Origin: Candidatus Collierbacteria bacterium
GTDB taxonomy: Bacteria; Patescibacteriota; Microgenomatia; UBA1400; JACPES01
Direction of reading: 5' to 3'
Assembly: GCA_016219325.1 (NCBI GenBank)
Contig: JACRNH010000003.1
Span: 45,123 to 109,122 of the forward strand
DNA length: 64,000 nt
A program made the translations under genes and the position numbers. This document shows positions 1-38,853 of the stretch, piece by piece. Below the pieces are notes generated by a model. That model did no database searches. It was not told where the DNA came from and was given only the letters and a program-made list of their open reading frames with translations. Position 1 is the first letter of the stretch; each line of letters opens with the position of its first letter.

Positions 1-923
1 GGGAGCAATCGATTCCGGGCGGATTATATCTTTTTAGATTCCTCGGCTATTTATGGGTGATTGTTAATGCCGAAAAACTATTGGCTCCGGTTAAAAAATT
101 TATAATCCCGGCTTTTTGGATCTTTGTAATTTTGGCTTGGGCCCAGTATTTGCTTTTGCCGGACATCAGATTTTTGCTTAAATTCGGATGGGACGAGCAT
201 TATTACCGGATGATCGGAACGGTTTTGGATCCGAATTATTTGGGGGTGATGCTGGGAATTATGGGAATATATTTAATATACAAATATGCAAATAGACAAA
301 TAGACAAATGGGAGAAAATCCTATTGGCATTGTCTTTTGGCGGATTGGCGCTGACTTATTCTAGGGCGAGTTGGGTGGCTACGGTGGTTGTTAGTTGTTG
401 GTTGTTGGTTGTTAGTAGGGGGCATAGAAATAAATTAGGGAAATTGGGGATATTAGGGATATTAGGGATAATTGGAATAATGGGAATATGGCTGGCGGCG
501 CCAAAGCCCGGTGGGGAAGGAATTAATTTATTGAGAACAAGTTCGATTGAGCAGAGAGTCGAGAGTTGGAGGGAAGGAATAAATGTTTGGCGGGAACATC
601 CGTGGTTGGGAGTGGGGTTTAATAATTACGGGGGAAAAGTACAAGAAAGTACAATAAAGTACAAAAATGTACAAGAAGGAAAAAATCATAGTGAAAACGC
701 TCCGAGCAGCAGTTGGATTTTACTTTTGGCAACGGTGGGGACAATTGGGATAGGGGGATTAGGGGTAATAGGGGGGATAAGGGGGATAGGGGAGATGAAG
801 AAAAATAAATTGTGGATGGGAATTTTGATGATGGTTGGGGTTCACGCGATTTTTAACAACACCATTTTTTATCCGCCGATTTTGGGATTGTTGGCTTTGA
901 TTAAGGCTGCCAGCGAAGAATGA
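1..923 (+). CDS. O-antigen ligase (Wzy_C)-like polytopic membrane protein, 5' partial. The reading frame is open to the window start and the ORF track starts at GTG 57.
   Basis: Hydrophobic polytopic sequence with a YSRASW motif typical of the Wzy_C/O-antigen ligase domain. It also carries in-frame low-complexity inserts (GILGILGIIGIMGI, KVQESTIKYKNVQEGK, GTIGIGGLGVIGGIRGIG). Confidence 0.55.
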   Translation, partial: EQSIPGGLYLFRFLGYLWVIVNAEKLLAPVKKFIIPAFWIFVILAWAQYLLLPDIRFLLKFGWDEHYYRMIGTVLDPNYLGVMLGIMGIYLIYKYANRQIDKWEKILLALSFGGLALTYSRASWVATVVVSCWLLVVSRGHRNKLGKLGILGILGIIGIMGIWLAAPKPGGEGINLLRTSSIEQRVESWREGINVWREHPWLGVGFNNYGGKVQESTIKYKNVQEGKNHSENAPSSSWILLLATVGTIGIGGLGVIGGIRGIGEMKKNKLWMGILMMVGVHAIFNNTIFYPPILGLLALIKAASEE

Positions 924-5236: not shown

Positions 5237-7036
5237 ATGGTTATGCAGGAGATTTCTAACAATCAAACAATCGCTCAAATGCTATTTGAGGTAGCCGCGG
5301 TTTTAGAAGTAACCGGAGGAGACAGGTTTAGAATCCGGGCATATCAAGAGGCTGCTAAATCCATCGAAAGTTATCCGGCAGAGATCCGCGATTTATGGGA
5401 ACATGGGAATTTGGGAGACGTTTCCAGCGTCGGCAAAGCCATTTCCGGTTATTTGGATGAATTTTTTAAAACAGGCAGAATAAAACATTTTGAGCCGATC
5501 ATAAAAAGAGTTCCTGCAGGAATGTTCCCTTTGCTAAATGTTAGCGGAATCGGTCCCAAGACAGCTTTTGCGCTTTCCAAAGAATTGGGACTGGTAAAGT
5601 CCAAGATGGCAGTTGCAAAACTTAAGAAGGCTGCTTTGGACGGTAAAATAGCCAAAATTGAGGGATTTGGGGAAGACTCGCAGGCCAAGATCTTGTCAGC
5701 AATCAAAGAATCCGAGTCCAGAGAAGACAAAATGCTTTTGCCTGTAGCTCGGGAACTGGCCGATAAAGTAATTGATTATCTAAAGAAGCAACCCGATGTT
5801 GTAAAAATTGAGGTATTAGGCAGCTTAAGAAGACAAATGGCTCTGGTCGGAGATATTGATATAGGAGTTGCCGCTTCAAATCCAAAGGAAATTACAGACT
5901 GGTTTATTAAATTCCCTGAATTCATAAAAATATTGGTGAGCGGGGACAAAGTTTGCCGGGCGGTTCACCGTACCGGAAGGCAAGTTGACTTAAAAATTGA
6001 GCCGGTTGAAAGTTTTGGTTCAATGCTGCAGCATTTTACCGGCAGTAAGGAGCATAATATCGCTTTGAGAGAATTGGCCCTGAAGAAAGGGTTGTCGTTG
6101 TCGGAGCATGGGATAAAGATAATGAGTAATGAGAAGAAAGTAATGAGCAATGATAAACAACTAGTAAATTTCAAAACGGAAGAGGAATTCTATAAAGCTC
6201 TTGGGATGGAGTGGATTCCGCCGGAGCTGCGGGAAAACAGGGGGGAGATTGAGGCTAGTAAAGAAGGTAAGTTGCCAGAACTGATAGGGTTATCAGATAT
6301 TAAAGGTGATTTTCATATCCATTCCGACTTTGACATTGAAACCAGTCATGATCTGGGGGTTTCGGGTTTAATTTATTTGACAAAAGAAGCTGAAAAAATG
6401 GGATACGAATTTATCGCCATATCTGATCACAATCCGTCTACTTCCCGGCATAATAATAAGCAAATAATTGACCTTATAAAGCGAAGAAATGAATATATTG
6501 ATAAATTTTTATCCTCGCGTGTGAACGTTGTGAAAATTAAATTATTTAAATCCCTCGAAATAGATATATCCGGCGATGGATCAATCGCTATTCCGGACGC
6601 GGCATTGGAACTTTTGGATTTTGTCATTGTCTCAATTCACAGTCAGTTTGTTGGTGACGAGAGCAAGCAAACGGCCAGAATTTTAAAAGCGCTTTCCCAT
6701 CCTAAAGTAAAAATTCTGGGCCATCCGACCGGTAGACAGCTGTTAAACCGGAACGGAATCAATTGCGATTGGGATCAGATATTTGATTATTGCGCCAAAA
6801 AGAATATTTGGCTGGAGGTGAATGGTAATCCGCATAGAATGGATTTGCCGGATCAGTTAATTCAGAAAGCTAAAGGTTTCGGAGTGAAATTTACAATTGG
6901 GACGGATAGTCATGCTTTTTCTCAAATGGAATACATGCCATCTGGCGTTTCTTTGGCTAGAAGGGGTTGGCTTGAGAAGAAAGATGTGATAAATTGTTTA
7001 GGATATAATGAAGTGAAGAAAGAATTTAATCCTTAA
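5237..7036 (+). CDS. polX: PolX-family DNA polymerase (Pol beta-like core plus C-terminal PHP domain)
   Basis: N-terminal HhH/pol-beta region and a C-terminal PHP motif (FHIHSDFD). The ORF-track start at 5168 overlaps tRNA-Asp, so ATG 5237 is used. It carries an in-frame AGTAATGAG-family repeat insert at 6120-6160 (KIMSNEKKVMSNDKQ). Confidence 0.8.
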   Translation: MVMQEISNNQTIAQMLFEVAAVLEVTGGDRFRIRAYQEAAKSIESYPAEIRDLWEHGNLGDVSSVGKAISGYLDEFFKTGRIKHFEPIIKRVPAGMFPLLNVSGIGPKTAFALSKELGLVKSKMAVAKLKKAALDGKIAKIEGFGEDSQAKILSAIKESESREDKMLLPVARELADKVIDYLKKQPDVVKIEVLGSLRRQMALVGDIDIGVAASNPKEITDWFIKFPEFIKILVSGDKVCRAVHRTGRQVDLKIEPVESFGSMLQHFTGSKEHNIALRELALKKGLSLSEHGIKIMSNEKKVMSNDKQLVNFKTEEEFYKALGMEWIPPELRENRGEIEASKEGKLPELIGLSDIKGDFHIHSDFDIETSHDLGVSGLIYLTKEAEKMGYEFIAISDHNPSTSRHNNKQIIDLIKRRNEYIDKFLSSRVNVVKIKLFKSLEIDISGDGSIAIPDAALELLDFVIVSIHSQFVGDESKQTARILKALSHPKVKILGHPTGRQLLNRNGINCDWDQIFDYCAKKNIWLEVNGNPHRMDLPDQLIQKAKGFGVKFTIGTDSHAFSQMEYMPSGVSLARRGWLEKKDVINCLGYNEVKKEFNP

Positions 7037-8779: not shown

Positions 8780-10924
8780 ATGCCCAACAACGATTTCAAT
8801 CCACAAGATTTATTTAAGCCTTCCGTTCCCAAAGAGGCTTTGGAAAAATATACGATTAATTTAACCAGAATGGCGCAGGAAGGGAAACTGGACCCGGTCA
8901 TCGGCAGGGATCAGGAAATCAGACGGATTATGCAGGTTTTATCGCGCCGAACCAAAAATAATCCGGTTTTAATCGGCGATCCTGGCGTTGGAAAAACCGC
9001 GTTGGTTGAAGGTTTGGCGTTGCGGATTGCTAACCGCGACGTTCCTGATTCTTTGGCCAACAAACAGCTATTGATTTTAGATTTGGCTTCGGTTTTGGCC
9101 GGAGCAAAATTCAGGGGTGAATTTGAAGAGCGATTAAAGGCAATTCTAAAAGGAGTGGAAGACAGCCGCGGAGAATATATTTTATTTATTGACGAATTGC
9201 ATACGCTGGTCGGAGCCGGCGGAGCAGAAGGAGCGGTTGATGCTTCAAACATTATGAAGCCGGGGCTAGCCAGAGGGTTATTGAGAGTAATTGGAGCAAC
9301 CACGATCAATGAATACCGGAAATATGTTGAAAAAGATGCCGCGTTGGAACGCAGATTTCAGCCGGTTTTGGTTGATGAACCTGTTCCGGAAGATGCGGTG
9401 GCAATTTTACGCGGGATAAAGGAAAAATATGAAGTACATCATGGCATCAGGATTAGCGACGATGCAATTTTGGCCGCGGTTCGGTTATCTACAAGGTATA
9501 TCCCAGACAGATTTTTACCGGATAAAGCGATTGACTTAATTGACGAAGCCGCGTCTGCTTTGAAAATAGAAACAGAATCTATGCCCGTTGCTTTGGATGA
9601 GCTTAAAAGAAAAATTACTCAACTGGAAATTGAGAAACAGGCATTGAAAAGGGAGAAAGACGGAGAAACTAAGGATAAGGTTAATAGGTTAGATGAGCAA
9701 GTCAAAAGATTAAAGAAAGATGCGGACGGGATTCAGGTTAAGTGGGATTTACAGAGGAAATTAATCAACCAAATCAGGAAAAACCGTGAAGAAATAGAAA
9801 AATTAAGAGGTGAATTGGAACGGGCAGAACGGGAAGTCAGCTTGGAAAAAGCGGCGGAAATTAAGTATGGAAAATTGCCCAAACTGGAAAAGGAAGTTAA
9901 AGAATTGGATTCGGAGTGGGGAAAGATTCCGGATAATGATAAAGTTTTGCGGGAGCAAGTGGAGGAAGAAGATGTTGCTCAAATTGTTTCCCGTTGGACT
10001 GGAATTCCGGTCATTAAATTAGTCGGAGGAGAGCAGGGAAAATTGGTTCATTTGGAGGAAGAATTGGGGAAAAAGGTTGTCGGTCAGGATGAGGCATTAA
10101 AAGCTGTCTCAAATGCTGTCAGGAGATCGCGGGCTGGAATTAAAGAGGAAGGCAAGCCGATCGCGGTTTTTTTATTTTTGGGTCCGACCGGAGTCGGAAA
10201 AACCGAAACAGCCAAGGCTTTAGCTGAATCCTTGTTTGCCGATGAAAATTCGCTGATCAGAATTGATATGAGCGAATATTCTGAACAGCATTCGGTGGCC
10301 AGATTGATCGGGGCTCCTCCCGGATATGTTGGATTTGAAGAAGGCGGTCAGTTGACGGAGGCAGTCAGGAGACGGCCGTATTCGGTTTTATTGTTTGACG
10401 AAATAGAAAAAGCTCATCCGCAGATATTCAATATTTTTCTTCAAATTTTTGACGCGGGCAGGTTAACTGACGGGAAAGGCAGAGCGGTTAATTTTAAAAA
10501 CACGGTGATTATTATGACGAGCAATATTCAAGGGAAAAAGGAAGAAGGAAAAGGGAAGAAGGATGTTGATGATATTATAAAGCAGCTGAGACAGACGTTT
10601 AAGCCGGAGTTTTTGAATAGAATTGATCAAATTGTGTTATATGAATCATTGTCCGAGAAACAATTAACGAAAATTGTAGATATAGAGTTATCGAAAGTTC
10701 AAAATAGATTGACGGAAAAGCAGATTAAACTTGAAGTGAGTAATGATACCAAAAAATATCTGGCCAAAACCGGCTACGATCCGGTTTTTGGTGCCAGGCC
10801 TTTGAAACGATTAATTCAGGATGAGATTTTAGATCCTCTGGCATTAATGATGATTGAGGGGAAAACGAAGGAAAAGTCGGTAGTAAATGTTGGTTTTAGC
10901 TCCGGAAAGATAATCTTTGACTAA
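8780..10924 (+). CDS. clpB: ClpB-type AAA+ disaggregase lacking the N-terminal domain
   Basis: Two AAA+ modules (GDPGVGKT Walker A; GPTGVGKT second Walker A) and a long coiled-coil middle domain. At 714 aa it begins directly with AAA1. Confidence 0.85.
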
Positions 10925-10961: not shown

Positions 10962-12554
10962 ATGGGATTTAAGATTTCTCCGCAAGAAATTCAACACGTG
11001 GCGCAACTCGCCAATCTTCAGATTTCCGATAAAGAATTAAAACTTTATACCAAGCAAATTCAGGATATTTTAGGATATGTTGAGCAACTCGATAAGGTTA
11101 AAGTTGAAGGAGTTGAGCCGACCTACCAGACTTTGGACGGGACAACTAACGTTTGGCGGGAGGACGAAGTCAAGGAAAGCTTGAGTCAGGAAGAAGCAGT
11201 GGGGCAGGCCGAAAAAACAATGGATGGGTATTTTATTACCGACAGCGTGTTTGGCAAAGGCAAAAGTACAATCCGCCAGCTGACGGAGTACAAGAAGGTG
11301 CAAGAAAGTACAAAAAGGGAAATTGATGGGTTGAATGTTGTTCTGACGGAGGTGGATGTAAAGGGAAATATAGGTCTCAAGGATTTATTTTTGACTAAAG
11401 GGATAAGAAGTACGGCAGGATCAAACGTTTTGCGGGAATATACCCCGCAATATTCTTCAAGTGTAATTAAATTGTTAGAAAAGGCCGGATTTGCCACAAA
11501 ATATAAATTGAATTGCGATGCTTGGGCTCATGGCTCAAGCGGTGAAAATTCTGATTTTGGGCCGGTCAAAAACCCTTGGAATCTCGAATTTACTCCGGGA
11601 GGATCATCAAGCGGATCGGCCGCGGCTGTGGCTGCCGGGTTAGTGGATTTTGCTACCGGGACGGATACAGGAGGGTCAATCAGATTGCCGGCGAGTTTTT
11701 GCGGAGTAGTCGGATTAAAGCCGACTTACGGCGCGGTCAGCCGGTACGGGATTGTGGCGATGGCGTCAAGTTTGGATTCTCCCGGGATTATTGGGAGGAC
11801 TGTGGAAGAGGTGGAGAAGGTGTTTGGGGTGATGGTTGGGGAGGATAGACGAGACGCTACATCAAAAAGAGAAGGAAAAAGAGGGATAAGAAGGATCAGA
11901 AGGACAGAGGAGATAAAAATCGGGATACCGGAAGAATTTTTTGCCGAGGGATTAGATTCGTCGGTAAAAAAAGCGGTAAATGGAGCGATAGAAGAATTAT
12001 CAAAAGCCGGACTGGAAATTAAGCGATTATCACTCCCGCACCTTAAATATGCCTTAGCTGTTTATTACTTGATTGCGACTACCGAAACCGCCAGTAACTT
12101 GGGCAGGTATGACGGGATAAGATACGGACAAGACAGATCATTTTTTGGCGCCGAAGCTAAGCGGCGGATTATGCTAGGGACGTTCGCGTCATCGGCCGGA
12201 TATTCAGCCAAGTTTTTTGAAAAAGCGGCTCGGGTAAGGACTTTAATAATTAAAGATTTCAATGATGCGTTTAAAGATGTTGATGTTTTGATCGGGCCGG
12301 TGTCGCCGACCCCGCCCTTTAAATTGGGGGAAAAGGCCAATGATCCATTGCAAATGTATTTATCGGATATTTTGACGGTGCCGGTAAACTTGGCGGGGCT
12401 GCCGGGGCTGGCGCTGCCGTGCGGGTTCACTAAAAATAATCTGCCAATCGGGATGCAGTTGATTGGGCCAAGGTGGTCAGAAAATTTACTTTTTGACATT
12501 GGTGAGAAGTACCAAGGTTTAACTAATTGGCATAAGGAGCGACCAAGAGTCTAA
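10962..12554 (+). CDS. gatCA: Glu/Asp-tRNA amidotransferase GatC-GatA fusion protein
   Basis: The N-terminal ~95 aa matches GatC (ISPQEIQHVAQLANLQISDKEL...VEPTYQ). The rest is the amidase-signature GatA (GGSSSGSAAAVAAG...GTDTGGSIRLPASFCGVVGLKPTYG). The ORF is continuous in this sequence. Confidence 0.8.
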   Translation: MGFKISPQEIQHVAQLANLQISDKELKLYTKQIQDILGYVEQLDKVKVEGVEPTYQTLDGTTNVWREDEVKESLSQEEAVGQAEKTMDGYFITDSVFGKGKSTIRQLTEYKKVQESTKREIDGLNVVLTEVDVKGNIGLKDLFLTKGIRSTAGSNVLREYTPQYSSSVIKLLEKAGFATKYKLNCDAWAHGSSGENSDFGPVKNPWNLEFTPGGSSSGSAAAVAAGLVDFATGTDTGGSIRLPASFCGVVGLKPTYGAVSRYGIVAMASSLDSPGIIGRTVEEVEKVFGVMVGEDRRDATSKREGKRGIRRIRRTEEIKIGIPEEFFAEGLDSSVKKAVNGAIEELSKAGLEIKRLSLPHLKYALAVYYLIATTETASNLGRYDGIRYGQDRSFFGAEAKRRIMLGTFASSAGYSAKFFEKAARVRTLIIKDFNDAFKDVDVLIGPVSPTPPFKLGEKANDPLQMYLSDILTVPVNLAGLPGLALPCGFTKNNLPIGMQLIGPRWSENLLFDIGEKYQGLTNWHKERPRV

Positions 12555-12559
12555 CCTAG

Positions 12560-12650
12560 TGATTTATGAATTAAGATTTATGATTTATGAATAATAACGG
12601 TCTGATTCTTATATATATAGAATTCATAATTCGTAAATCTTAAATCATTG
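12560..12650. repeat. Imperfect hairpin (GATTTATGAAT-family tandem units in inverted orientation) spanning the gatCA-gatB junction
   Basis: Left arm TGATTTATGAATTAAGATTTATGATTTATGAAT and right arm GAATTCATAATTCGTAAATCTTAAATCA are near reverse complements. Confidence 0.7.
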
Positions 12651-12656
12651 CTTAAA

Positions 12657-14024
12657 ATGAAAATCAAATTAATTCCCATAATTGGCCTTGAAGTTCACGT
12701 GGAATTGAAGACGAATTCCAAAATGTTCTGCGGATGTAAAAACGATCCGTTTGGGGCTTCAAAACCGAATATTTACACCTGTCCGGTGTGTTTGGGTTTG
12801 CCGGGAGCCCTGCCGGTGCCGAATAAGAAAGCGATTGAATTAACCGTAAAATTAGGCTTAGGTTTGGGTTGTGAAATAAATCGAGAATCCCGGTTTGACC
12901 GGAAACATTATTTTTATCCGGATCTGCCGAAAGGCTATCAGATCAGCCAATATGAGAAACCGTTCGCGTCTGGCGGTGAGCTGAAATTCAGAATTCAGAA
13001 TTCAGAATTCAGAATTATAAGAGTTAGAAGGGTGCATTTGGAAGAGGATACGGGGAAATTGCTGCACCGGAAAATAGACGGTGAAGAAGTTTCTTTGATT
13101 GATTTTAACCGTTCCGGCGTGCCATTGGCGGAAATTGTGACCGAACCGGATATCAGGTCGGCGCAGGAAGCAAAAGAGACGGCTAAAAAAATTTATCAGA
13201 TTGTTAGGGCCTTGGGCGTGTCTGATGCGGATATGGAGAAGGGAAGCATGAGGTTGGAAGCGAATATCTCTCTCTCCGAGATAAAGGAAAAAGGAAAAAG
13301 GAAAAAGGAAAAAGGGGAACTTCCGGACTATAAGGTGGAGATCAAGAATATTAATTCTTTTAGATTTATGGAAAGGGCGATAAATGCGGAAATTGAGAGA
13401 CAGGAAAAAATTCTTGAGTCCGGTAAAAAAGTGCAACAGCAAACTTTTGGTTGGGATACGGAAAAACAGGAGTTGAAACCGCAAAGGGTGAAAGAAGAAG
13501 CCGCGGATTATCGGTATTTTCCGGAACCGGATATACCGCCAATCGTTTTGTCAGACGATTGGATATTAAAGATCAAAGATCAAATATCAAAATTGCCGGA
13601 AGAAATATATGAAGGATTGATTAGAACTGGAATTGCGGCAGCGGCGGCGAAGGTGATTGTGGGAGATAGGGAGTTAGCGGAGAAAATTAATGGGATAATT
13701 AGGGAAATTAAGGAGATTGGAGATATTAGGGATATTGGAAACTGGGCGTTGCATCATCAGGAGATGATTAAGGAAAAACCGGTGGATGAATTAATTTCTT
13801 TATTTAAGCAAGGGAGAGAAGGGTTAGTTTCAGATTCCGGCCAACTTAAACGATGGGTTAAGGAAGTTGTTGAAGACAATGTTCAAGCGGTGAATGATTA
13901 TAGAAAAGGCAAAGAAGCGGCATTAATGTTTTTGGTTGGACAGGCGCAAAGATTGGCTAAAGGGAAAGCTGATGTTAGTTTGGTTAAAGATATGTTAAGC
14001 TCAAAATTATCAAGTGATTTATGA
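12657..14024 (+). CDS. gatB: Glu/Asp-tRNA amidotransferase subunit B
   Basis: N-terminal IGLEVHVEL...CPVCLGLPGALP GatB signature. ATG 12657 is preferred over the ORF-track TTG at 12648. It has in-frame micro-repeats at 12986-13017 ((CAGAATT)4), 13283-13316 (AAGGAAAAAGG x3) and 13691-13740. Confidence 0.85.
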   Translation: MKIKLIPIIGLEVHVELKTNSKMFCGCKNDPFGASKPNIYTCPVCLGLPGALPVPNKKAIELTVKLGLGLGCEINRESRFDRKHYFYPDLPKGYQISQYEKPFASGGELKFRIQNSEFRIIRVRRVHLEEDTGKLLHRKIDGEEVSLIDFNRSGVPLAEIVTEPDIRSAQEAKETAKKIYQIVRALGVSDADMEKGSMRLEANISLSEIKEKGKRKKEKGELPDYKVEIKNINSFRFMERAINAEIERQEKILESGKKVQQQTFGWDTEKQELKPQRVKEEAADYRYFPEPDIPPIVLSDDWILKIKDQISKLPEEIYEGLIRTGIAAAAAKVIVGDRELAEKINGIIREIKEIGDIRDIGNWALHHQEMIKEKPVDELISLFKQGREGLVSDSGQLKRWVKEVVEDNVQAVNDYRKGKEAALMFLVGQAQRLAKGKADVSLVKDMLSSKLSSDL

Positions 14025-14117
14025 AGTATGATTTATGATTTACGAATAATATTAATTTAGTTTTCATAGATTTTCTGATTCATAATTCATAAATCGTAAT
14101 TCTTAATTCATGAATCA
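14017..14117. repeat. Imperfect hairpin of the same GATTTATGAAT family spanning the gatB stop and the dnaE start
   Basis: GATTTATGAAGTATGATTTATGATTTACGAAT ... GATTCATAATTCATAAATCGTAATTC form an inverted repeat. Confidence 0.7.
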
Positions 14118-17100
14118 ATCTTTCGTTCATTTGCACGTCCATTCAGAGTACTCCCTTTTGGACGGGTTACCGAAAATTGCAAAATTAATAAAACGGGCCA
14201 AAGAGCTGAAAATGCCGGCTTTAGCGATAACCGATCACGGAGCGATGTACGGAGCGGTTAAGTTTTATAATGCCGCGTTGGAGGCAGGGATTAAACCGAT
14301 AATCGGAGTTGAAGCCTATATGGCTCAAAGAAGCCGGTTTGATAAAGAAGTCGGGGTGGATAAAGAATTACGGCATCAGTTGTTGCTAGCCAAGAACGAA
14401 ACCGGCTATAAAAATTTAATGAAGTTAGTGACACAGGCTAATTTAGAAGGATATTATTACAAACCGCGGATCGACAAGGAACTATTAAAAATTTATCACG
14501 AAGGAGTTATCGCAACCTCAAGTTGTTTACAAGGGGAAATCCCGAGGCTTATCGTAAATAACCGTTTGGATGAGGCTAAATCTTTGCTCAAATGGTATCT
14601 TGAGATATTCGGTGAAGATTATTATTTGGAACTCCAAAAGCATATTAATATTCCGGAACTGGAAATGGTTAATGCTCAGTTAATTAAAATGTCCCGGGAG
14701 TTCGGGGTACCGCTGGTAGCCACCAATGACGTTCACTATATCAATGCCGATGACGCCGAGGCCCAAGACGCGTTATTGGCGGTAGGGACCAAGAAATTAT
14801 TGTCCGATAAAGACAGATTAACGATGATTTCTTCGCCTGATTTTTACTTAAAGACGAATGAAGAAATGGGCAAGTTATTCTCCGATATTCCTGAAGCCCT
14901 GGAAAATACGCTTAAAATTGCCGGTAAATGCCAATTATCTTTACAAATCGGTAAATGGATTTTACCTAAATATCCGTTAAATGAAGGTGAAACTCCGGAA
15001 ATGGGTTTAGCTAGATTGACAGAAGAAGGTCTAAAACTGCGGTTTGGGAAAATATCCGATCAAATTAAGCAAAGGGCGGATTATGAGTTAGGGATAATTT
15101 GCCGCAAAGGATTTGCGACTTATTTTTTGATCGTACAGGATTTTGTAAATTGGGCCAAAAAAGAAGGAATCAGGGTCGGCCCTGGCAGGGGCAGTGTTGC
15201 CGGATCAATTGTGGCCTATGGATTAAGAATTACTACAGTCAATCCGCTGGAGCACAATATTCCCTTCGAAAGGTTTATGAATCCGGATCGGCCAACCCCG
15301 CCTGATATTGATATGGATTTTGCCGATGACCGCCGGGATGAGGTTATCCGTTATGTCACCGAAAAATATGGAAAAGGAAAAGTTGCCCAAATTATTACTT
15401 TCGGGACGATGGAAGCCAGGCAAGCGATACGTGATATTGGCAGAGTTATGGATGTCCCTTACTCTACCTGCGATAAACTAGCCAAACTAATCCCTTTAAA
15501 AGTTGGATTGAGGGAGGCCATAAATTCCAGTTTAGAGATGCAAGAAATGGGACGGGAGCCGCAAATTACTAAATTATTCGGGTTGGTGGAAAAGGTGGAA
15601 GGAGTTACCCGACACGCCTCAACTCATGCCGCCGGAGTGGTTATTGCCGATAAAGACATTACAGAATACACTCCGGTTCAAAAAGAAACCGGCAGCGACC
15701 GGATAATGACTCAATATGACATGTATAGTCTGGACCTCAATGTTTCGGATAAAGCCATTGGTTTATTGAAAATGGATTTCTTGGGATTGCGGAATTTAAC
15801 AATTTTAGGAAAAGCGGTTGAGTTCGTAAAAAAATACGAAAATGTTGAAGTTGATTTATCAGAACTGCCGTTGGATGATTCGCAAATTTATGAATTAATA
15901 AGCAGCGGAGAAACTACCGGAATATTTCAATTAGAAAGCCAGGGGATGAGACGGTTGGCCCGGAATTTAAAACCGAATAAATTCAGCGATATTACCGCCA
16001 TGGTGGCTTTATTCCGGCCGGGGCCGATGGAGCTGATCGACGATTTTATTGCCGGGAAACTCCATCCCGATAAAATTCAATATTTACATCCAGCTTTAAA
16101 ACCGATTTTAGCTCCAACTTACGGAGTGGCGGTATACCAGGAACAATGCATGCAAATCGCCAATAAAGTGGCCGGATATTCTATGGCTGAGGCCGATAAT
16201 TTGCGGCGGGCGATTGGAAAGAAAAAACATTCAATCATGGAGATTGAGAAAAAGAAATTTATAGCCGGTGTCGTAAAAAATAGTTATACAAAACCAATTG
16301 CTGAAAAAATCTGGGGATTTATCGAGAAATTCGTCGGATATGGATTTAATATTCCACATTCGGTCAGTTACGCCATGATTGCCTATCAGACAGCTTATAT
16401 GAAAATTAAATTTCCGGTTGAATATATGACGGCTATGCTGACGGCTGAAAGCCGGGCAATTTCCGGACCGGCCCGGGATTTTAAGGTATCTCAGGGAGTT
16501 GACGAATGCCGGAGGTTGGGGATTATGATTTTACCGCCGGACATTAATAAATCATTAGAGGATTTTTCCATAGAGGATTTTTCAGAAAGCCTTAAATCAA
16601 AAGCTGTCAGGTTTGGAATATCTGCTGTAAAAAACGTCGGAACGGCGGCGATCAGTTCAATTTTAAGCGTCAGACAAACAGGTGAATTTACTTCGTTATT
16701 TGATTTTTTGGGCAGAGTTGATTCTCAGAAAGTAAATAAGAAAGTAATTGAAAGTTTAATAAAAGTCGGGGCGATGGACTCGTTCGGCAGGCGGTCTTCT
16801 TTGCTTGCGGTTTTAGACGATTTAAGGTTGCAAACAGCCGCAAAGCAAAAATTGGTTGATTCAGGGCAGGGAAGTTTATTTGAGGATTTTGGAACCGGAG
16901 CGAAAGATGATAACCAGGTAGAAATACCGGATTTGCCGGAATTTTCGGCTGAAGACATGGCAAATTTTCAGAAAGAGCTGCTGGGAATTTATTTAAGCGA
17001 TAATCCGATGGTTAAATTATTGGATCCGGTTAGAAACATGGTCTCTGCCAGAGTGATGGATTTAACTGAAGAATCAGCCGGAAAAGTGGTAGTTATGGCA

Positions 17101-30852: not shown

Positions 30853-31260
30853 ATGTTACTCCATCTCTCTCTTGCTACTCCTCTTAAGAAAGTTTTAGAG
30901 ATTGACGAAGTTGAAATCGTTAATGCTCCGGCGGAAATGGGTGACGTTGGAATTTTGCCGAATCATGCTCCGTTTATGTCCAGACTTAAAGACGGGGTGA
31001 TAAATTACCGGATCGGGGGAAATAATTTTTATGTCGGAGTTAACGGAGCCTTTATGGATGTAGCCGAAAATCAGGTGACTATAATTTCTGAAGCCGCAAT
31101 TTTGCCGGAGGACGCTGATTTAAAAAGAGCTCAAGAAGCAAGGGATAGGGCGAAGGCTGAATTGGAAAAAAGACTGGAAGGAACAGATTTTAAGATGGTG
31201 GAAGCGGAGTTGAGAAAAGCGCTTTTAGAGATGAAATTATTGGAGCACGTTAAAAAATGA
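30853..31260 (+). CDS. atpC: F0F1 ATP synthase subunit epsilon
   Basis: Size, position and a beta-sandwich plus helical-hairpin pattern consistent with the epsilon subunit. Confidence 0.75.
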   Translation: MLLHLSLATPLKKVLEIDEVEIVNAPAEMGDVGILPNHAPFMSRLKDGVINYRIGGNNFYVGVNGAFMDVAENQVTIISEAAILPEDADLKRAQEARDRAKAELEKRLEGTDFKMVEAELRKALLEMKLLEHVKK

Positions 31261-31337
31261 GTAATGAGTAGAAAGTAATGAGTAATGAATAAAATAACAT
31301 TATTTTCTACTTTCTATTTTCTACTCATTATTTTTTT
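31259..31337. terminator. AGTAATGAG/TAGAAAGTA-family inverted-repeat hairpin followed by a T7 tract (a likely intrinsic terminator after atpC)
   Basis: GAGTAATGAGTAGAAAGTAATGAGTAATGAAT ... ATTATTTTCTACTTTCTATTTTCTACTCATTA then TTTTTTT immediately before the ruvC ATG. Confidence 0.6.
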
Positions 31338-31826
31338 ATGATTATCTTAGGCATTGACCCCGGATTTGCCAGAATGGGATGGGGAGTAATCAGCAAAAAC
31401 GGCGCAAAATTTTCACTGGTAGCTTACGGATGTCTGGAGACTTCTGCCGATGTCGGTTTGCCAGACAGGTTGGAAATGATATTTGACGGGATTCTCAAAG
31501 TAATAAAGAAGTACAAGCCGGATTTGGTCGGCATAGAAACTCTTTTTTTTAACACTAACGCCAAAACCGCGGTCAAGGTAGGGGAGGCGAGGGGAGCGAT
31601 ATTGGTGGCGCTGAAAAAAGCCGGAATTAAATCAGCGGATCTGACTCCTCTTCAAGTGAAACAAGCTGTAGCTGGTTACGGCCGGGCGGAAAAATCTCAA
31701 GTCCAAAAAATGGTTAAGACCTTGTTAAATCTAAAAGAAATCCCCCATCCTGACGACGCCGCCGACGCTTTAGCCATCGCCCTCGCTGCTGGATCAATTG
31801 TAAAGTATCAGATACTTTACAACTAA
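31338..31826 (+). CDS. ruvC: Holliday junction resolvase RuvC. Its last 8 codons are supplied by a palindromic repeat.
   Basis: N-terminal ILGIDPGFARMGWGVI with the catalytic Asp, and C-terminal DDAADALAIAL. The terminal IVKYQILYN is encoded by the 25-bp palindrome at 31798-31822. Confidence 0.85.
   Translation: MIILGIDPGFARMGWGVISKNGAKFSLVAYGCLETSADVGLPDRLEMIFDGILKVIKKYKPDLVGIETLFFNTNAKTAVKVGEARGAILVALKKAGIKSADLTPLQVKQAVAGYGRAEKSQVQKMVKTLLNLKEIPHPDDAADALAIALAAGSIVKYQILYN
31798..31822. repeat. Palindrome copy 1 (TTGTAAAGTATC A GATACTTTACAA), forming the 3' codons of ruvC
   Basis: Perfect 12-bp arms with a 1-nt spacer. Confidence 0.9.
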
Positions 31827-31846: not shown

Positions 31847-32575
31847 TTAATCTTCAGCATCAATCGCAACTGGACGAAGAAGCGTTGAATCTGAATTAGA
31901 AAATTGAGCCTCAACAAATTCGCGGTATTCAGTAGGTCTGTTTCTGAATAATCCAATAACAAACTTTGGCTTTGAAATAGAGAAAGGGGTTTTAGTCGGG
32001 AAGAGATAGTAGTCGTTAATATTGCTCCATTGCCAATTTTCCGGTTTGTTAACCAGTCCGGCCATGGTAGGGTTAATATGGATATATCTGGATACATGCA
32101 TGACTCGTTCGTCCGTATCTAGTTCTTTGATCTTAAACCTTCCCTGAAATAGCGGCCCAACTCGTTGATTATCGTGATTAAATTTATGAGCGTATGTTAT
32201 TCCAATCCGTTTCATGAATTCCGAGATTGGAGACTGTAAAGTATCTGATACTTTACAGATGCGAATAAGGAAATGGAAATGGTTTGGCATTAAACAATAA
32301 GCCAGAAGTTCGATAATGTTTTTGAACATACCGTTGCCTTTAGGATCAGCTGTAAACGAAACAGGCTTATTTTTCATTCTCCAGCGCATCGAAAATGGCG
32401 ATTGATGCTGTAAGGTATCAGATACTTTACAGTCAGGGAAGCCAATTAAAAAATAACGCAGAATTTCGCGGAAGTCAAAGTAGTCAGACTCCCTTTTGAA
32501 TATTTTCCGCCTATTTACCCCGCGGTTATAGACATGATAAATTCCGTTTTCGTGATAATCAGGCCTAATATACAT
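31847..32575 (-). CDS. tnpA: IS200/IS605-family Y1 (HUH) transposase / REP-associated tyrosine transposase-like protein
   Basis: YHVYNRGVNRRKIF N-terminal motif, HUH motif (MPNHFHFLI) and the catalytic Tyr region (RYIHINP). The ORF-track start at 32836 is a stop-free upstream extension, so ATG 32575 is used. Confidence 0.75.
   Translation of the reverse strand: MYIRPDYHENGIYHVYNRGVNRRKIFKRESDYFDFREILRYFLIGFPDCKVSDTLQHQSPFSMRWRMKNKPVSFTADPKGNGMFKNIIELLAYCLMPNHFHFLIRICKVSDTLQSPISEFMKRIGITYAHKFNHDNQRVGPLFQGRFKIKELDTDERVMHVSRYIHINPTMAGLVNKPENWQWSNINDYYLFPTKTPFSISKPKFVIGLFRNRPTEYREFVEAQFSNSDSTLLRPVAIDAED
32234..32258. repeat. Palindrome copy 2 (CTGTAAAGTATC T GATACTTTACAG), in-frame inside tnpA and encoding CKVSDTLQ
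   Basis: Perfect 12-bp arms. Confidence 0.9.
32408..32432. repeat. Palindrome copy 3 (CTGTAAGGTATC A GATACTTTACAG), in-frame inside tnpA and encoding CKVSDTLQ
   Basis: 12-bp arms with 1 mismatch. Confidence 0.9.
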
Positions 32576-32586
32576 ATGTGGATAAG

Positions 32587-32609
32587 TGTAAAGTATCAGA
32601 TACTTTACA
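32587..32609. repeat. Palindrome copy 4 (TGTAAAGTATC A GATACTTTACA), 12 nt upstream of the tnpA ATG
   Basis: Perfect 11-bp arms. Confidence 0.9.
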
Positions 32610-32696
32610 AGAAGACAAGATGCGAGAACGTCTATCGGTTGGATAGAACTATCGGGTGAGTAGAATAAAGCGACCAGAATAATAATTTTACGAAAT

Positions 32697-33113
32697 GTGG
32701 TATATTTGCTACATATGTCAGTAGACGAGTTACGGATAAGTTTAGCCGATGTCCTTGGGTCTAAGAAATGTAGCCAGGACCAGTGGATGATCGCACCGCA
32801 TCTTACAAAGTCCGGAAAAGACCTTAGAATTGCCACGTCTGTAAAAAATCATTTTGATAAGCTGCACCGAGAACAGCCTTTTAGAAGTTCGACATCAGCC
32901 CTTCGCGATGACCTTCGGCAATTAACGCTTACTGAAACAAACGTAATTTTAGATTCATTTGAATCTCTTAAGCCTGAAGAGTCTCAGAATCAATTATTAT
33001 ATCCAGCTTTCAGAGAAGTCATAATCGCCGCTCATGAGGCAGACGTAGTTGATAAACATCGACTATTGGGAAAATTTGCCGTTTCGCTTCTTCGATTGGT
33101 AGATAGCGAATAA
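32697..33113 (+). CDS. hypothetical protein between the IS element and ruvA
   Basis: A 138-aa ORF with no recognizable motifs. Confidence 0.3.
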   Translation: MVYLLHMSVDELRISLADVLGSKKCSQDQWMIAPHLTKSGKDLRIATSVKNHFDKLHREQPFRSSTSALRDDLRQLTLTETNVILDSFESLKPEESQNQLLYPAFREVIIAAHEADVVDKHRLLGKFAVSLLRLVDSE

Positions 33114-34742: not shown

Positions 34743-34818
34743 GTCATTCCCGCGAAAGCGGGAATCTATATAAATAATTATCTTATCTACATAGATTCCG
34801 TGTCGAGCACGGAATGAC
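34743..34818. repeat. MITE/REP-like element (GTCATTCC-hairpin-GGAATCTAT ... ATAGATTCC-hairpin-GGAATGAC), full copy after ruvB
   Basis: GTCATTCCCGCGAAAGCGGGAATCTATATAAATAATTATCTTATCTACATAGATTCCGTGTCGAGCACGGAATGAC. Confidence 0.75.
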
Positions 34819-35787: not shown

Positions 35788-36202
<415 letters not shown>

Positions 36203-38852: not shown

Positions 38853-38853
38853 A

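What the first reader, a model, noticed from the sequence alone, without database searches (positions are those of the whole stretch)
434..492. The GGGATATTAGGG-family G/A/T tandem repeats encode Gly/Ile-rich inserts in the Wzy-like gene (434-492, 739-797) and in gatB (13691-13740)
GGGAAATTGGGGATATTAGGGATATTAGGGATAATTGGAATAATGGGAATATGG encodes GKLGILGILGIIGIMGIW in the Wzy-like gene. GatB carries GGGATAATTAGGGAAATTAAGGAGATTGGAGATATTAGGGATATTGG, encoding GIIREIKEIGDIRDIG. This is the same unit in two genes. GatB additionally carries (CAGAATT)4 at 12986-13017 and (AAGGAAAAAGG)3 at 13283-13316, both in frame. So many tolerated tandem-repeat tracts in one essential enzyme suggests either an active repeat-generating mechanism or unusually relaxed selection.
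Basis: seen in the sequence. Interest (0 to 1): 0.65.

Follow-up and report, generated by a model that had tools for sequence, protein, structure and literature searches.

The report
In-frame short tandem arrays in Patescibacteria genes
The reported repeats are real and belong to a genome-wide population of very short DNA tandem arrays (7-10-base units, about four copies) that candidate-phyla-radiation bacteria tolerate, in frame, at a few fixed loops and membrane helices of otherwise well-conserved essential proteins.

Summary
The window comes from a Candidatus Collierbacteria (Patescibacteria/CPR) contig. All the tracts exist and are in frame. One correction: the "(AAGGAAAAAGG)3" tract is a perfect heptamer array, (AAAGGAA)4.7.

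They are not isolated cases. The window holds 40 tandem-array clusters where shuffles give 2.4. Units are mostly 7-10 nt, with a median of 4.25 copies and 32 nt. Arrays are A-rich, lie both in genes and between them, and a few unit families recur at unrelated sites.

In GatB the tracts lie at a beta-hairpin tip, a disordered loop and an inter-helix turn. Across 87 Patescibacteria gatB genes, 44 of 54 such arrays fall at the same four sites. Their units differ between lineages, and loops 2 and 3 are about 7 residues longer where an array is present.

The Wzy_C tract at 438-491 is not an insert. It is a conserved transmembrane helix.

Close relatives carry other arrays, short palindromes or nothing at these sites. 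This points to active DNA-level turnover (slippage or template switching plus recombination), filtered by reading frame and protein fold. It does not point to relaxed selection or phase variation.

The phenomenon resembles known long simple-sequence repeats and cyanobacterial STRRs, but in a new setting.

The parts
3..923 (+). 3' part of an O-antigen-ligase-like (Wzy_C) membrane protein gene. It carries five tandem arrays.
   Evidence: Pfam PF04932 E=8.8e-16. It is 100% identical to P0121, an O-antigen ligase family protein of Candidatus Collierbacteria.
438..491 (+). Reported tract 1: a 9-nt array (GGGATATTA family) encoding the transmembrane helix GKLGILGILGIIGIMGIW. It also matches the canonical G-quadruplex motif (438-467).
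   Evidence: TRF 432-489, scores 54-68. It is homologous in L081 and conserved as a G-x-x-periodic TM helix before APKPGGEG in relatives. G4 regex match.
747..797 (+). Reported tract 2: a 9-nt G-rich array encoding the end of a TM helix plus GGIRGIGEM.
   Evidence: TRF 747-796. GIRGI(R/G)E is conserved in many relatives, but L081 has a GGTTGGAT-type repeat there instead. A G4 motif lies at 737-765.
275..309 (+). 8-nt array (AATATACA)4.4 in the Wzy_C gene.
   Evidence: TRF. Conserved in L081.
385..416 (+). Heptamer array (GTTGTTA)4.3 in the Wzy_C gene. The orthologous site in L081 carries (TGGTATC/A)4 instead.
636..677 (+). Decamer array (AAAGTACAAG)4.2 in the periplasmic loop of Wzy_C (KVQESTIKYKNVQ). 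It is +21 nt relative to L081, which has a single copy.
   Evidence: The same family occurs at 11288-11318, at 58833-58874 (reverse complement) and in gatB loop 3 of L081/L086.
12657..14024 (+). gatB (Asp/Glu-tRNA amidotransferase subunit B, 455 aa).
   Evidence: Pfam GatB_N 9e-110 and GatB_Yqey. 100% identical to P0001 of Candidatus Collierbacteria.
12985..13016 (+). Perfect heptamer array (AATTCAG)4.6. It encodes KFRIQNSEFRI, the tip of a beta hairpin (residues 110-120).
   Evidence: TRF 100% matches. AF2 model: strands E104-112 and E118-130, pLDDT 82-90. Identical in L084 and L085; replaced by (TTACAGG)3 in L081 and by 9-mers in L083.
13283..13315 (+). Perfect heptamer array (AAAGGAA)4.7. 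It encodes [12 protein letters not shown] in a disordered loop (residues 210-220).
   Evidence: TRF. pLDDT <50 at residues 212-219. +6 to +8 residues relative to solved GatB. Relatives carry palindromes here.
13568..13591 (+). Weak heptamer array (AAAGATC)3.4 in helix 300-309, the fourth GatB array site.
   Evidence: TRF score 41. Other lineages have arrays at the same site.
13692..13738 (+). Reported tract 3: a 9-nt array of the GGGATATTA family encoding GIIREIKEIGDIRDIG, at a helix-turn-helix junction (residues 346-360).
   Evidence: TRF. Model helices H338-350 and H354-366. Conserved in L083; replaced by a palindrome, an 8-mer array or a decamer array in other relatives.
12555..12652 (+). 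Intergenic hairpin between gatCA and gatB, made of a (TGATTTA) array and its inverted copy.
   Evidence: RNA fold -23.1 kcal/mol, z=-4.2.
14005..14120 (+). Intergenic hairpin between gatB and dnaE, made of (TGATTTA)4 and inverted (ATTCATA)4.9 arrays.
   Evidence: Fold -26.5 kcal/mol, z=-3.2.
10533..10563 (+). Heptamer array (GGAAAAA)4.4 in a ClpB/ClpC-like AAA+ gene. It has the same unit as the gatB array at 13283.
11288..11318 (+). Decamer array (GTACAAGAAG)3.1 in the fused gatC-gatA gene.
11870..11904 (+). 9-nt array (AGAAGGATA)3.8 in gatC-gatA, encoding GKRGIRRIRR. This looks like the G-I-R family, but family membership was not tested.
51872..51918 (+). Heptamer / 21-nt array in the pyruvate:ferredoxin oxidoreductase gene (NNEQKTKNNEQR). 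L136 has (AACAACT)4 at the same site.
54998..55055 (+). Heptamer / 21-nt array (8.1 copies) in uvrB. It is a 14-residue insert relative to solved UvrB and is 94% identical over 34 nt to 51875-51908.
55255..55382 (+). In-frame imperfect palindrome in uvrB (an insert of about 52 residues). Its arms are made of degenerate heptamers.
   Evidence: I1. Fold -51.4 kcal/mol, z=-7.6. Insert relative to solved UvrB. Present in L135, absent in L137; L136 has only the left heptamer array.
57725..57802 (+). Two 8-nt arrays, (AAAAGGTT)4.2 and (CAACCTGC)3.8, at a variable site of uvrA.
58833..58874 (+). Decamer array in reverse orientation. It encodes the N-terminal hydrophobic segment FFVLSFTFLYLFV of a transglutaminase-like protein. 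L136 shows the same T>C change in 3 of its 4 units.
31248..31338 (+). Terminator-like hairpin made of (AATGAGT/AGAAAGT) arrays plus their inverted copy, followed by a T run.
   Evidence: I3. Fold -28.5 kcal/mol, z=-7.4.
44712..44795 (+). A second hairpin of the same array family.
   Evidence: Fold -29.9 kcal/mol, z=-7.35. BLAST matches.
6120..6153 (+). One arm of the AATGAGT family lying in frame in the PolX gene (IMSNEKKVMSNDKQ).
36146..36199 (+). Intergenic heptamer array (AGAAAGT)7.7 with no predicted structure.

Best explanation
The three reported tracts are members of one 9-nt unit family. That family belongs to a much larger population of short tandem arrays with these properties: units of 7-10 nt (7 most common), about 4-5 copies, about 32 nt long, A-rich and C-poor. 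The arrays pervade this Collierbacteria genome and many other Patescibacteria.

Shown:
- The arrays occur between genes, where an array plus its inverted copy forms a terminator-like hairpin.
- They also occur inside genes, always in frame and only at a few structurally permissive positions. In GatB these are a beta-hairpin tip, a disordered loop and inter-helix turns. In the Wzy_C protein they are transmembrane helices and a periplasmic loop. Similar variable sites exist in UvrA, UvrB, the pyruvate:ferredoxin oxidoreductase gene and GatA.
- The same sites in relatives carry different arrays, short palindromes or nothing.

Inferred:
- The arrays are made and replaced at the DNA level. Replication slippage or template switching would give direct copies (arrays), and strand switching would give inverted copies (palindromes).
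- Short-patch copying or recombination between similar arrays and between strains would spread unit families and homogenise the units within an array.
- Purifying selection on reading frame and fold then filters the outcome. For units not divisible by three, only three-unit steps (21, 24 or 30 nt) survive. This would give the typical 4.6-copy, 32-nt heptamer array and loops about 7 residues longer.
- The encoded peptides have no dedicated function. They are tolerated filler whose properties depend on frame and orientation. One 9-mer reads G-I-L in a membrane helix and I-R-D in GatB. One decamer reads KVQESTRKYK on one strand and FLYFLVLSCTF on the other.
For: Excess and properties:
- 40 clusters against 2.4 expected, with unit 7 dominant. 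A 50-kb E. coli control has no arrays with 7-10-nt units.
- Median 4.25 copies and 32.5 nt. Arrays are 44% A and 8.5% C.
- 31 arrays are coding and 12 are intergenic or at gene edges.

Hairpins built from arrays: z=-7.4, -7.35, -4.2 and -3.2; the uvrB palindrome gives z=-7.6.

Hypervariability in syntenic relatives:
- Against L081, repeat-covered columns are 47% identical with 17% gaps, versus 79% and 4% elsewhere.
- Against L136, the figures are 54% versus 82% identity.

Same site, different occupant: gatB loops 1-3, Wzy 385-416 and 747-796, the oxidoreductase gene and the uvrB hot spots.

Phylum-wide hot spots: 44 of 54 arrays in 87 gatB genes fall in four sites that cover 18% of the protein. 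Loops with an array are longer than loops without: 17 vs 12.5, 16 vs 8 and 35 vs 28 residues.

Frame-dependent length steps: heptamer arrays in ORFs peak at 32 nt, decamers at 40-43 nt and octamers at 32-36 nt. 9-mers decay smoothly, and non-coding heptamers peak at 25 nt.

Concerted change within an array: the same T>C substitution in 3 of 4 decamer units.

Single-copy seed: L081 has one copy at the Wzy decamer site.

Unit recurrence: 6 exact pairs against 0.2-0.8 expected, with 30-36-nt matches between arrays in different genes.

Recent cassette differences: gatB alleles with long 100%-identical stretches differ by whole cassettes at loops.

Precedent: heptanucleotide repeats are the commonest long simple-sequence repeat in prokaryotes and have been attributed to polymerase slippage (Mrazek 2007, as summarised in PMC4679880).
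Against: - No read-level data were available, so ongoing length change is inferred from comparisons between genomes.
- A +3-unit step from a seed of about 1.6 units in an essential gene is hard to obtain by single-unit slippage, because the intermediates would be frameshifted.
- At GatB site 4 and at window loop 3, arrays are present without any net length change. Simple expansion does not predict this.
- Identical units, including their internal variant pattern, occur in unrelated genes and genomes (26-36 nt). The uvrB palindrome is also patchily distributed: it is 78% identical in a relative whose uvrB gene is only 63% identical. Both fit copy-and-paste mobility better than local birth.
- The mosaic alleles come from short metagenome contigs and could be assembly chimeras.
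Confidence: 0.55

Rival explanations
1. The arrays and palindromes are very small, non-autonomous mobile elements. They would be comparable to cyanobacterial STRR/SDR, REP/REPIN or Rickettsia RPE elements, copied to new sites by a trans-acting enzyme such as an HUH/Y1 transposase. Selection would retain only in-frame copies at permissive sites.
For: - A limited repertoire of units recurs at unrelated loci and in both orientations.
- (AAAGTACAAG)4 lies in frame in at least 8 unrelated genes on several metagenome contigs, nearly always with 4 units.
- The Wzy array and the L081 gatB array share 26 nt, including the variant positions.
- The uvrB palindrome has inverted termini and a patchy distribution.
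- The window encodes a RAYT-like Y1 transposase whose cognate palindrome sits in frame inside its own gene.
- Arrays are either identical between genomes or wholly replaced.
Against: - No target-site duplications or fixed element ends were seen.
- Orthologous sites often carry related but different units, with concerted changes. A single-copy seed exists at one site.
- The RAYT-associated palindrome occurs only at the RAYT gene within the window and is unrelated to the arrays.
- The length distribution differs by unit size in the way frame selection on unit-wise expansion predicts.
Confidence: 0.27
2. The repeats are kept because the encoded peptides are useful. Examples would be G-x-x glycine-zipper membrane helices in Wzy, charged flexible linkers or interaction motifs in GatB, or new disordered regions as proposed for Borg amino-acid tandem repeats.
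For: - The Wzy 438-491 helix and the GIRGI motif are conserved in relatives down to about 50% identity.
- The (AATTCAG) array encodes a symmetric strand-turn-strand modelled with good confidence and is identical in three genomes.
- The Borg precedent (PMC9879509).
Against: - The same units occur between genes, in both orientations and in different reading frames, giving unrelated peptides.
- At one GatB site the occupants are unrelated peptides, or are absent, in close relatives.
- Loop 2 is modelled as disordered, and relatives carry unrelated sequences there.
Confidence: 0.08
3. The intragenic tracts act at the nucleic-acid level. G-quadruplexes (the Wzy tracts) or hairpins within mRNA or DNA would modulate translation, mRNA stability or replication.
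For: - Two of the three canonical G4 motifs in the window are the reported Wzy tracts (3 found against 0.58 expected).
- G-rich heptamer repeats with a four-unit preference form G4 structures in Xanthomonas and Nostoc (PMC4692102).
- Array-built hairpins between genes look like terminators.
Against: - Most coding arrays, including all three further gatB tracts, are neither G4-prone nor self-complementary. The array at 36140-36205 folds to 0 kcal/mol.
- The gatB 9-mer tract has no canonical G4 motif.
- Relatives replace the tracts with sequences of a quite different structural type.
Confidence: 0.07
4. The tracts are an assembly or sequencing artefact, or chance low-complexity sequence.
For: The source is a metagenome-assembled contig. 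Short repeats can mislead assemblers, and some relatives look mosaic.
Against: - The arrays keep reading frames open in dozens of conserved genes.
- The same arrays are found in independent assemblies from different samples.
- The excess over shuffles is about 17-fold.
Confidence: 0.02

Closest known systems
Long simple sequence repeats with 5-11-nt units (LSSRs; Mrazek, Guo & Shah 2007, as summarised in PMC4679880)
   Same: Short tandem arrays in which heptanucleotide units are the commonest class. They are statistically over-represented genome-wide and have been attributed to polymerase slippage.
   Different: - LSSRs were described mainly in large genomes (Burkholderia, Xanthomonas, cyanobacteria, actinobacteria). 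Here the host is a small-genome CPR bacterium.
- Non-triplet units were reported as rare in coding DNA. Here 31 of 43 arrays lie in frame inside genes, including essential ones, at fixed hot spots and with lengths that fit three-unit steps.
Cyanobacterial STRR heptamers and small dispersed repeats (Mazel 1990; Elhai 2008, cited in PMC5861425; own knowledge)
   Same: A few heptamer unit families dispersed through a genome in short tandem arrays. Very small repeats are also found inside genes and inside other repeats. One relative (L086) has a 30-nt insert inside the AATTCAG array.
   Different: Different phylum and different units. STRRs are mostly intergenic. No conserved element boundaries were shown here.
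G-rich GGGNATC / GGGGAYT heptamer repeats of Xanthomonas and Nostoc (Rehm 2015, PMC4692102)
   Same: Dispersed short arrays with a clear preference for about four units. The Wzy tracts match the G3N1-7 G-quadruplex motif.
   Different: Those repeats are under-represented on the coding strand of ORFs. Here the G-rich tracts lie on the sense strand within an ORF, and most arrays are not G-rich.
Tandem repeats of Borg elements that create amino-acid repeats (Schoelmerich 2023, PMC9879509)
   Same: A-rich tandem repeats lie both between genes and in frame within ORFs. They evolve fast and add disordered or surface segments to proteins.
   Different: In Borgs each locus has its own unit, derived from local sequence, and the ORF arrays give perfect amino-acid repeats. 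Here units are mostly 7, 8 or 10 nt, recur between loci, and sit in core housekeeping enzymes.
Rickettsia palindromic elements and other in-frame MITE/REP insertions (Ogata 2000, own knowledge; review PMC10969869, seen only as a search hit and not read)
   Same: Selfish-looking repeats are tolerated in frame at surface positions of conserved proteins. Examples here are the uvrB palindrome, the uvrC hairpin insert and the palindromes in relatives' gatB loops.
   Different: The reported tracts are direct tandem arrays, not palindromes. The elements here are much shorter (about 32-130 nt), and no multi-copy family with defined ends was demonstrated.
Phase-variable contingency loci (simple sequence repeats that switch genes on and off)
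   Same: Tandem repeats inside coding sequence whose unit length would shift the frame on a single-unit change. One host gene is a surface-polysaccharide (Wzy_C) gene.
   Different: The arrays lie mid-gene in essential enzymes. Copy number is conserved between genomes and fits in-frame steps. No frameshifted alleles were seen.

Membership tests
Long simple sequence repeats, 5-11-nt class (LSSR) | Tandem arrays of 5-11-nt units, longer and more numerous than expected for the genome's composition | tested here: met
   40 clusters against 2.4 in dinucleotide shuffles; 26 of the 40 have units of 7-10 nt.
Long simple sequence repeats, 5-11-nt class (LSSR) | Heptanucleotide units are the most abundant class | tested here: met
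   Unit 7 accounts for 13-16 of 40 clusters, the largest class.
Long simple sequence repeats, 5-11-nt class (LSSR) | Non-triplet units largely excluded from coding sequence | tested here: not met
   31 of 43 arrays lie inside ORFs, and most have units of 7, 8 or 10 nt.
STRR-type dispersed heptamer families | A small number of unit sequences reused at many loci in one genome | tested here: met
   6 exact unit pairs against 0.2-0.8 expected, P<0.0005. BLAST matches between arrays.
STRR-type dispersed heptamer families | Predominantly intergenic location | tested here: not met
   About 72% of arrays are coding. Per base, however, density is about 5-fold higher in the 7% of sequence that is intergenic.
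Phase-variable contingency locus | Copy number varies between close strains and switches the reading frame on and off | tested here: not met
   (AATTCAG)4.6 is identical in three genomes. The gatB ORFs of the homologues that were aligned are intact at the arrays. Array lengths in ORFs fit three-unit steps. Within-population reads could not be examined.
Borg-type amino-acid tandem repeats | A-enriched, near-perfect tandem repeats lying in frame in ORFs | tested here: met
   Arrays are 44% A against 30% for the window. Several arrays have 100% matches.
Borg-type amino-acid tandem repeats | Each locus has a unique unit arising from local sequence | tested here: not met
   Unit families recur across loci and genomes.
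Rickettsia-palindromic-element-like in-frame selfish elements | Palindromic element inserted in frame in a conserved protein, with presence/absence polymorphism among relatives | tested here: not met
   Not met for the reported tracts, which are direct repeats with no self-complementarity. Met for the uvrB element at 55255-55382.
Rickettsia-palindromic-element-like in-frame selfish elements | Many dispersed copies of the same element in one genome | tested here: inconclusive
   Only one copy of the uvrB palindrome was found in 64 kb. The whole genome was not available.
REP / RAYT system | A Y1 (HUH) REP-associated tyrosine transposase gene flanked by its cognate palindromes | tested here: inconclusive
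   The gene at 31847..32836(-) scores 32.4 bits against Pfam Y1_Tnp (cut-off 23). Against NCBIfam REP_Tyr_transpos it scores 62.3 bits, below the cut-off of 80. Four copies of TGTAAAGTATC-N-GATACTTTACA lie in and around the gene. No dispersed copies were found in the window, and no link to the arrays was seen.
G-quadruplex-forming repeat | Four or more G3+ tracts separated by 1-7 nt | tested here: met
   Met for the Wzy tracts at 438-467 and 737-765. Not met for the gatB tract. Actual folding cannot be tested with these tools.
GatB (Asp/Glu-tRNA amidotransferase subunit B) | GatB_N catalytic domain plus YqeY-like tail, adjacent to gatC/gatA | tested here: met
   Pfam hits; solved-structure homologues at 1e-110; a fused gatC-gatA gene lies immediately upstream.

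The most novel reading that the evidence does not exclude
Patescibacteria may possess a specific, highly active DNA transaction that writes or overwrites patches of about 30-40 nt with about four tandem (or inverted) copies of a 7-10-nt seed. Candidates are reiterative microhomology-primed fill-in synthesis during repair or replication restart, or an HUH-enzyme-dependent copy-and-paste. The patches would be exchanged between loci and strains, making arrays and mini-palindromes a lineage-specific engine that continually re-codes permissive loops and membrane helices of core proteins. This would account for four observations: (1) the near-constant copy number; (2) arrays that appear without net length change; (3) the apparent one-step +3-unit gains in essential genes; (4) the recurrence of identical arrays in unrelated genes.
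Probability: 0.2. Interest if true: 0.85.

Novelty: new variant of a known kind. Interest (0 to 1): 0.6.

Why it matters
If the pattern holds genome-wide, it matters in four ways.

1. CPR/Patescibacteria, with small and streamlined genomes, continually remodel defined surface loops and membrane helices of essential proteins through a DNA-level repeat process. This would be an unrecognised source of the protein-length and sequence divergence that makes CPR proteins hard to align and annotate.

2. It gives a natural map of permissive insertion sites in enzymes such as GatB, UvrB and UvrA.

3. It offers a tractable system for an open question: why heptanucleotide arrays dominate prokaryotic long repeats, and how non-triplet arrays can arise in frame.

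4. It has a practical consequence. Arrays shared between loci and strains are likely break points for metagenome assemblies and for recombination.

Tried and rejected
Close relatives were therefore fetched one by one with the look-up of encoding contigs.
- L081 and L082, expected to be strain variants, are 100% identical. They gave no polymorphism data.
- The metagenome scan for (AAAGTACAAN)3 returned many unrelated organisms, some eukaryote-like. Only a subset was usable, and its taxonomy could not be confirmed; tblastx against the window matched only L110.
- Rfam found only five tRNAs, so no known RNA family explains any array.
- A G-quadruplex role fits only the two Wzy tracts.
- The RAYT-like gene was considered as the driver. 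Its palindrome is confined to its own locus in the window, so no link to the arrays could be made.
- Protein-level periodicity (heptads, glycine zippers) was considered as the cause of the DNA periodicity. It was rejected for 7-, 8- and 10-nt units, which cycle through all three reading frames.
- Relaxed selection on GatB was rejected. The core is highly conserved and arrays cluster in 18% of the sequence.
- No paper on simple repeats in Patescibacteria was found. Elhai 2008 is not held in the library.
Full report
**Source and observation**

The window is from a Candidatus Collierbacteria (Patescibacteria/CPR) contig. GatB, the Wzy_C protein and UvrB are each 100% identical to NCBI Collierbacteria proteins from a 123,865-nt contig.

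The reported tracts are all present and in frame:
- 438-491 encodes GKLGILGILGIIGIMGIW in the partial Wzy_C gene (3..923, Pfam PF04932).
- 747-797 encodes GIGGLGVIGGIRGIGEM in the same gene.
- 13692-13738 encodes GIIREIKEIGDIRDIG in gatB (12657..14024).
- (AATTCAG)4.6 lies at 12985-13016.
- A perfect heptamer array, (AAAGGAA)4.7, lies at 13283-13315.

The Wzy and gatB 9-mer tracts share DNA: 32 nt at 90.6% identity. They are read in different frames, G-I-L in Wzy and I-R-D in gatB.

**The tracts are part of a genome-wide population**

- TRF finds 40 array clusters with score >=40 in 64 kb, against 2.4 in dinucleotide shuffles.
- Units are mostly 7 nt, then 8, 9 and 10 nt.
- Median copy number is 4.25 (IQR 3.8-4.75) and median length is 32.5 nt.
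- The arrays are A-rich and C-poor: 44% A and 8.5% C.
- A 50-kb E. coli control has no array with a 7-10-nt unit.
- 31 arrays lie in frame inside ORFs. The host genes include Wzy_C, a ClpB-like gene, fused gatC-gatA, gatB, PolX, pyruvate:ferredoxin oxidoreductase, PEP-utilising enzyme, uvrA, uvrB and a transglutaminase-like gene.
- 12 arrays are intergenic or at gene edges, although only about 7% of the window is intergenic.
- Between genes, an array and its inverted copy form long hairpins: 31248-31338 and 44712-44795 (z about -7.4), and the spacers flanking gatB (z -4.2 and -3.2).

**Unit families recur**

Within the window there are 6 exact unit matches, allowing rotation and strand, against 0.2-0.8 expected. 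Examples:
- AAAGTACAAG occurs in Wzy (636), gatA (11288), the N-terminus of the transglutaminase-like gene (58833, reverse strand) and gatB loop 3 of relative L081. The L081 match is 36 nt at 94%, and 26 nt are identical including the variant positions.
- AAAGGAA occurs in gatB and in the ClpB-like gene.
- A 21-nt NEQKTK unit occurs in uvrB and in the oxidoreductase gene (34 nt at 94%).
- AATGAGT/AGAAAGT occurs in two terminator-like hairpins, in an intergenic array and in frame in PolX.

A metagenome scan for (AAAGTACAAN)3 gave heterogeneous hits. They include contigs where four-unit arrays lie in frame in glycosyltransferases, an ArnT-like protein, phosphoglycerate kinase and other genes. 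These gene identities rest on my reading of the translations and were not confirmed with a family search. The sense strand encodes KVQESTRKYK loops, and the antisense strand encodes FLYFLVLSCTF membrane helices.

**Where the tracts lie in the proteins**

An AlphaFold2 model of GatB (mean pLDDT 77) places the tracts as follows:
- The AATTCAG array is at the tip of a beta hairpin (residues 110-120).
- The AAAGGAA array is in a disordered loop (pLDDT <50).
- The 9-mer tract is at a helix-turn-helix junction.

Against solved GatB structures the three sites are +2, +6 to +8 and +3 residues longer.

In the Wzy_C family, tract 1 is a hydrophobic helix immediately before the conserved APKPGGEG motif. 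It is present, with Gly at every third position, in relatives down to about 50% identity. It is therefore not an insert. Tract 2 (GGIRGIGEM) is shared by many relatives but replaced in others. GIRGIRGI repeats occur at a third site near the N-terminus of relatives.

**Turnover in relatives**

DNA alignment of gatB from five Collierbacteria relatives shows that each site is a hot spot with alternative occupants:
- Loop 1 carries (AATTCAG)4.6, (TTACAGG)3 or GGGGAGATT 9-mers. One allele has a 30-nt insert inside the array.
- Loop 2 carries (AAAGGAA)4.7 or perfect palindromes of the form AAGG...CCTT, with compensatory stem changes.
- Loop 3 carries the 9-mer array, a 16-bp-stem palindrome, an 8-mer array or the decamer array.

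Arrays tend to be either identical between genomes or wholly different. The longest identical runs between the window and L084 or L085 are 80 and 68 nt and begin at the AATTCAG array, yet the genes are only 75% identical overall.

In syntenic comparisons, repeat-covered columns are far more variable than the rest: 47% against 79% identity with L081, and 54% against 82% with L136.

Orthologous sites often hold related but different units:
- GTTGTTA against TGGTATC in Wzy.
- AACAATG/AACAAAG against AACAACT in the oxidoreductase gene.
- One decamer array shows the same T>C change in 3 of its 4 units, which indicates concerted evolution.

Three gatB alleles share long 100%-identical stretches but differ by whole cassettes at loops 2 and 3. 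This suggests very recent exchange. Because these are short metagenome contigs, chimerism cannot be excluded.

UvrB shows the same behaviour at two hot spots. The window has a 14-residue array insert and an in-frame palindrome of about 52 residues (dG -51 kcal/mol, z -7.6). The palindrome is shared, at 78% nt identity, with a relative whose uvrB gene is only 63% identical. It is absent in an 80%-identical relative. A third relative has only its left heptamer array.

**Generality across Patescibacteria**

In 87 gatB genes from diverse lineages (Gottesman-, Roizman-, Woese-, Curtiss- and Collierbacteria, WWE3, Parcubacteria and others), 33 carry at least one array with a 6-11-nt unit. Of the 54 arrays, 44 fall in four sites: residues 106-125, 206-220, 298-322 and 342-363 of the window protein. 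These sites cover 18% of the protein. Units differ between lineages, and the modal copy number is 4.6.

Loops with arrays are longer than loops without them:

| Site | With array | Without array | P |
|---|---|---|---|
| Loop 1 | 17 aa | 12.5 aa | 0.003 |
| Loop 2 | 16 aa | 8 aa | 7e-5 |
| Loop 3 | 35 aa | 28 aa | 0.05 |
| Site 4 | no length difference | | |

The excess at loops 2 and 3 is about 7 residues, which equals 21 nt or three heptamers.

Pooled over 1.42 Mb, array lengths depend on unit size:
- Near-perfect heptamer arrays in ORFs have a secondary length mode at 30-34 nt, with 32 nt the commonest value.
- Decamers peak at 40-43 nt and octamers at 32-36 nt.
- 9-mers decay smoothly.
- Non-coding heptamers peak at 25 nt.

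This is the pattern expected if unit-wise expansion is filtered by reading frame.

Array density varies among lineages. The median is 1.4 per 10 kb, the window has 6.25, and some loci reach 8-12.

**Interpretation**

The best-supported reading is a DNA-level process of array birth, homogenisation and replacement, filtered by selection for an open frame and an intact fold.
- Slippage or template switching would produce direct copies.
- Strand switching would produce inverted copies and hence palindromes.
- Short-patch copying or recombination between arrays and strains would spread and homogenise units.

This matches the known class of long simple-sequence repeats, in which heptamers dominate and polymerase slippage was proposed (Mrazek 2007, as summarised in PMC4679880). 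It resembles cyanobacterial STRR/SDR elements, the four-unit G-rich heptamers of Xanthomonas and Nostoc (PMC4692102), Borg tandem repeats (PMC9879509) and in-frame palindromic elements of Rickettsia.

It differs in four respects: the host lineage; the dominance of non-triplet units inside essential genes; the conserved hot spots; and the recurrence of units between loci.

The main rival is true copy-and-paste mobility of mini-elements. It is favoured by identical arrays in unrelated genes and by patchy distributions. It is weakened by the lack of defined ends and by evidence for in-situ evolution.

The following remain unexplained (note):
- One-step +3-unit gains in essential genes.
- Arrays present without net length change.

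Relaxed selection on GatB and phase variation are not supported. No paper describing this in Patescibacteria was found in the searchable library.

Noticed in passing
window 31847-32836 (-), with palindromes at 31799-31821, 32235-32257, 32409-32431 and 32587-32609: A RAYT-like Y1/HUH transposase gene lies between ruvC and ruvA. It scores 32 bits against Pfam Y1_Tnp, and 62 bits against NCBIfam REP_Tyr_transpos (below the cut-off of 80). It is flanked and interrupted by four copies of the 23-nt palindrome TGTAAAGTATC-N-GATACTTTACA. Two copies lie in frame inside the gene (CKVSDTLQ). A homologue on metagenome contig L110 has a different cognate palindrome (TGGGAAGTTT-NNN-AAACTTCCCA), also flanking the gene and lying in frame inside it, including just after the HUH motif as in the window.
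   Followed up: partly
window 55255-55382 (uvrB) and 54998-55055: UvrB is 742 aa, against about 660 aa in solved structures. The extra length comes from an in-frame imperfect palindrome of about 128 nt and a 14-residue array insert. Both sites vary in presence and absence among relatives that are 80-88% identical.
   Followed up: yes
window 61323-61409 (uvrC): An in-frame insert of about 69 nt, absent from the L136 orthologue. It encodes ...PGQIGTTRQSIKDRFPRSLSFARNDKG and contains the small hairpin GTCCCG-GTCAAAT-CGGGAC. It looks like the hairpin-type elements seen in relatives' gatB and Wzy loops.
   Followed up: partly
window 38376-38402 and 38853-38881: Two near-identical 27-nt palindromic sequences (TATAAAATGTYGTACTACATTTTATAT) bracket about 450 nt that appear to hold a disrupted reverse-strand ORF. 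The region lies in a 750-nt gap between called genes that is also rich in arrays. It may be a small mobile or regulatory cassette.
   Followed up: no
window 34761-34799 and 41083-41104: Intergenic palindromes that share GGAATCTAT...ATAGATTCC ends. They may be a common operator or terminator motif.
   Followed up: no
window 10962-12554: gatC and gatA are fused into one 530-aa ORF (GatC domain at residues 21-91, amidase domain at 137-510). A ClpB/ClpC-like AAA+ gene (8780-10924) lies between the M48 peptidase gene and gatCA. It is absent at that place in the syntenic relative L081.
   Followed up: partly
window 438-467, 737-765, 7954-7984 (+ strand): Three canonical G-quadruplex motifs lie on the sense strand, against 0.58 expected. 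Two are the reported Wzy tracts and one is in the M48 peptidase gene.
   Followed up: partly
L139, L140, L141, L084, L085 (gatB of relatives): Perfect palindromes of 35-40 nt sit in frame in gatB loops. All begin AAAGG/AAGG and end CCTT/CCTTT, and their stems differ by compensatory changes. Examples are AAAGGGCTCTCCTTGCCG-TA-CGGCAAGGAGAGCCCTTT and AAGGTCAGACCTTGGG-TA-CCCAAGGTCTGACCTT. The (AAGGGCYA)4 8-mer array occurs at loop 2 in one allele and at loop 3 in another.
   Followed up: partly
P0121 (full-length Wzy_C protein; N-terminus lies upstream of the window): At the N-terminal hot spot, relatives carry GIRGIRGIRGI repeats. The window's own protein instead has a different insert of about 45 residues (ISELAKICLFAVTPRITRGKPARFRSGWPRAAASLLRKFANFANK).
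   Followed up: no
Genome-contig loci L002, L006, L007 and others: Many public MAG records titled 'uncultured Gammaproteobacteria/Pseudomonadales/Saccharibacteria' carry gatB genes about 50% identical to the Collierbacteria gene, in the same range as records named as Patescibacteria lineages, and some have similar heptamer arrays. Their taxonomic labels look unreliable.
   Followed up: no
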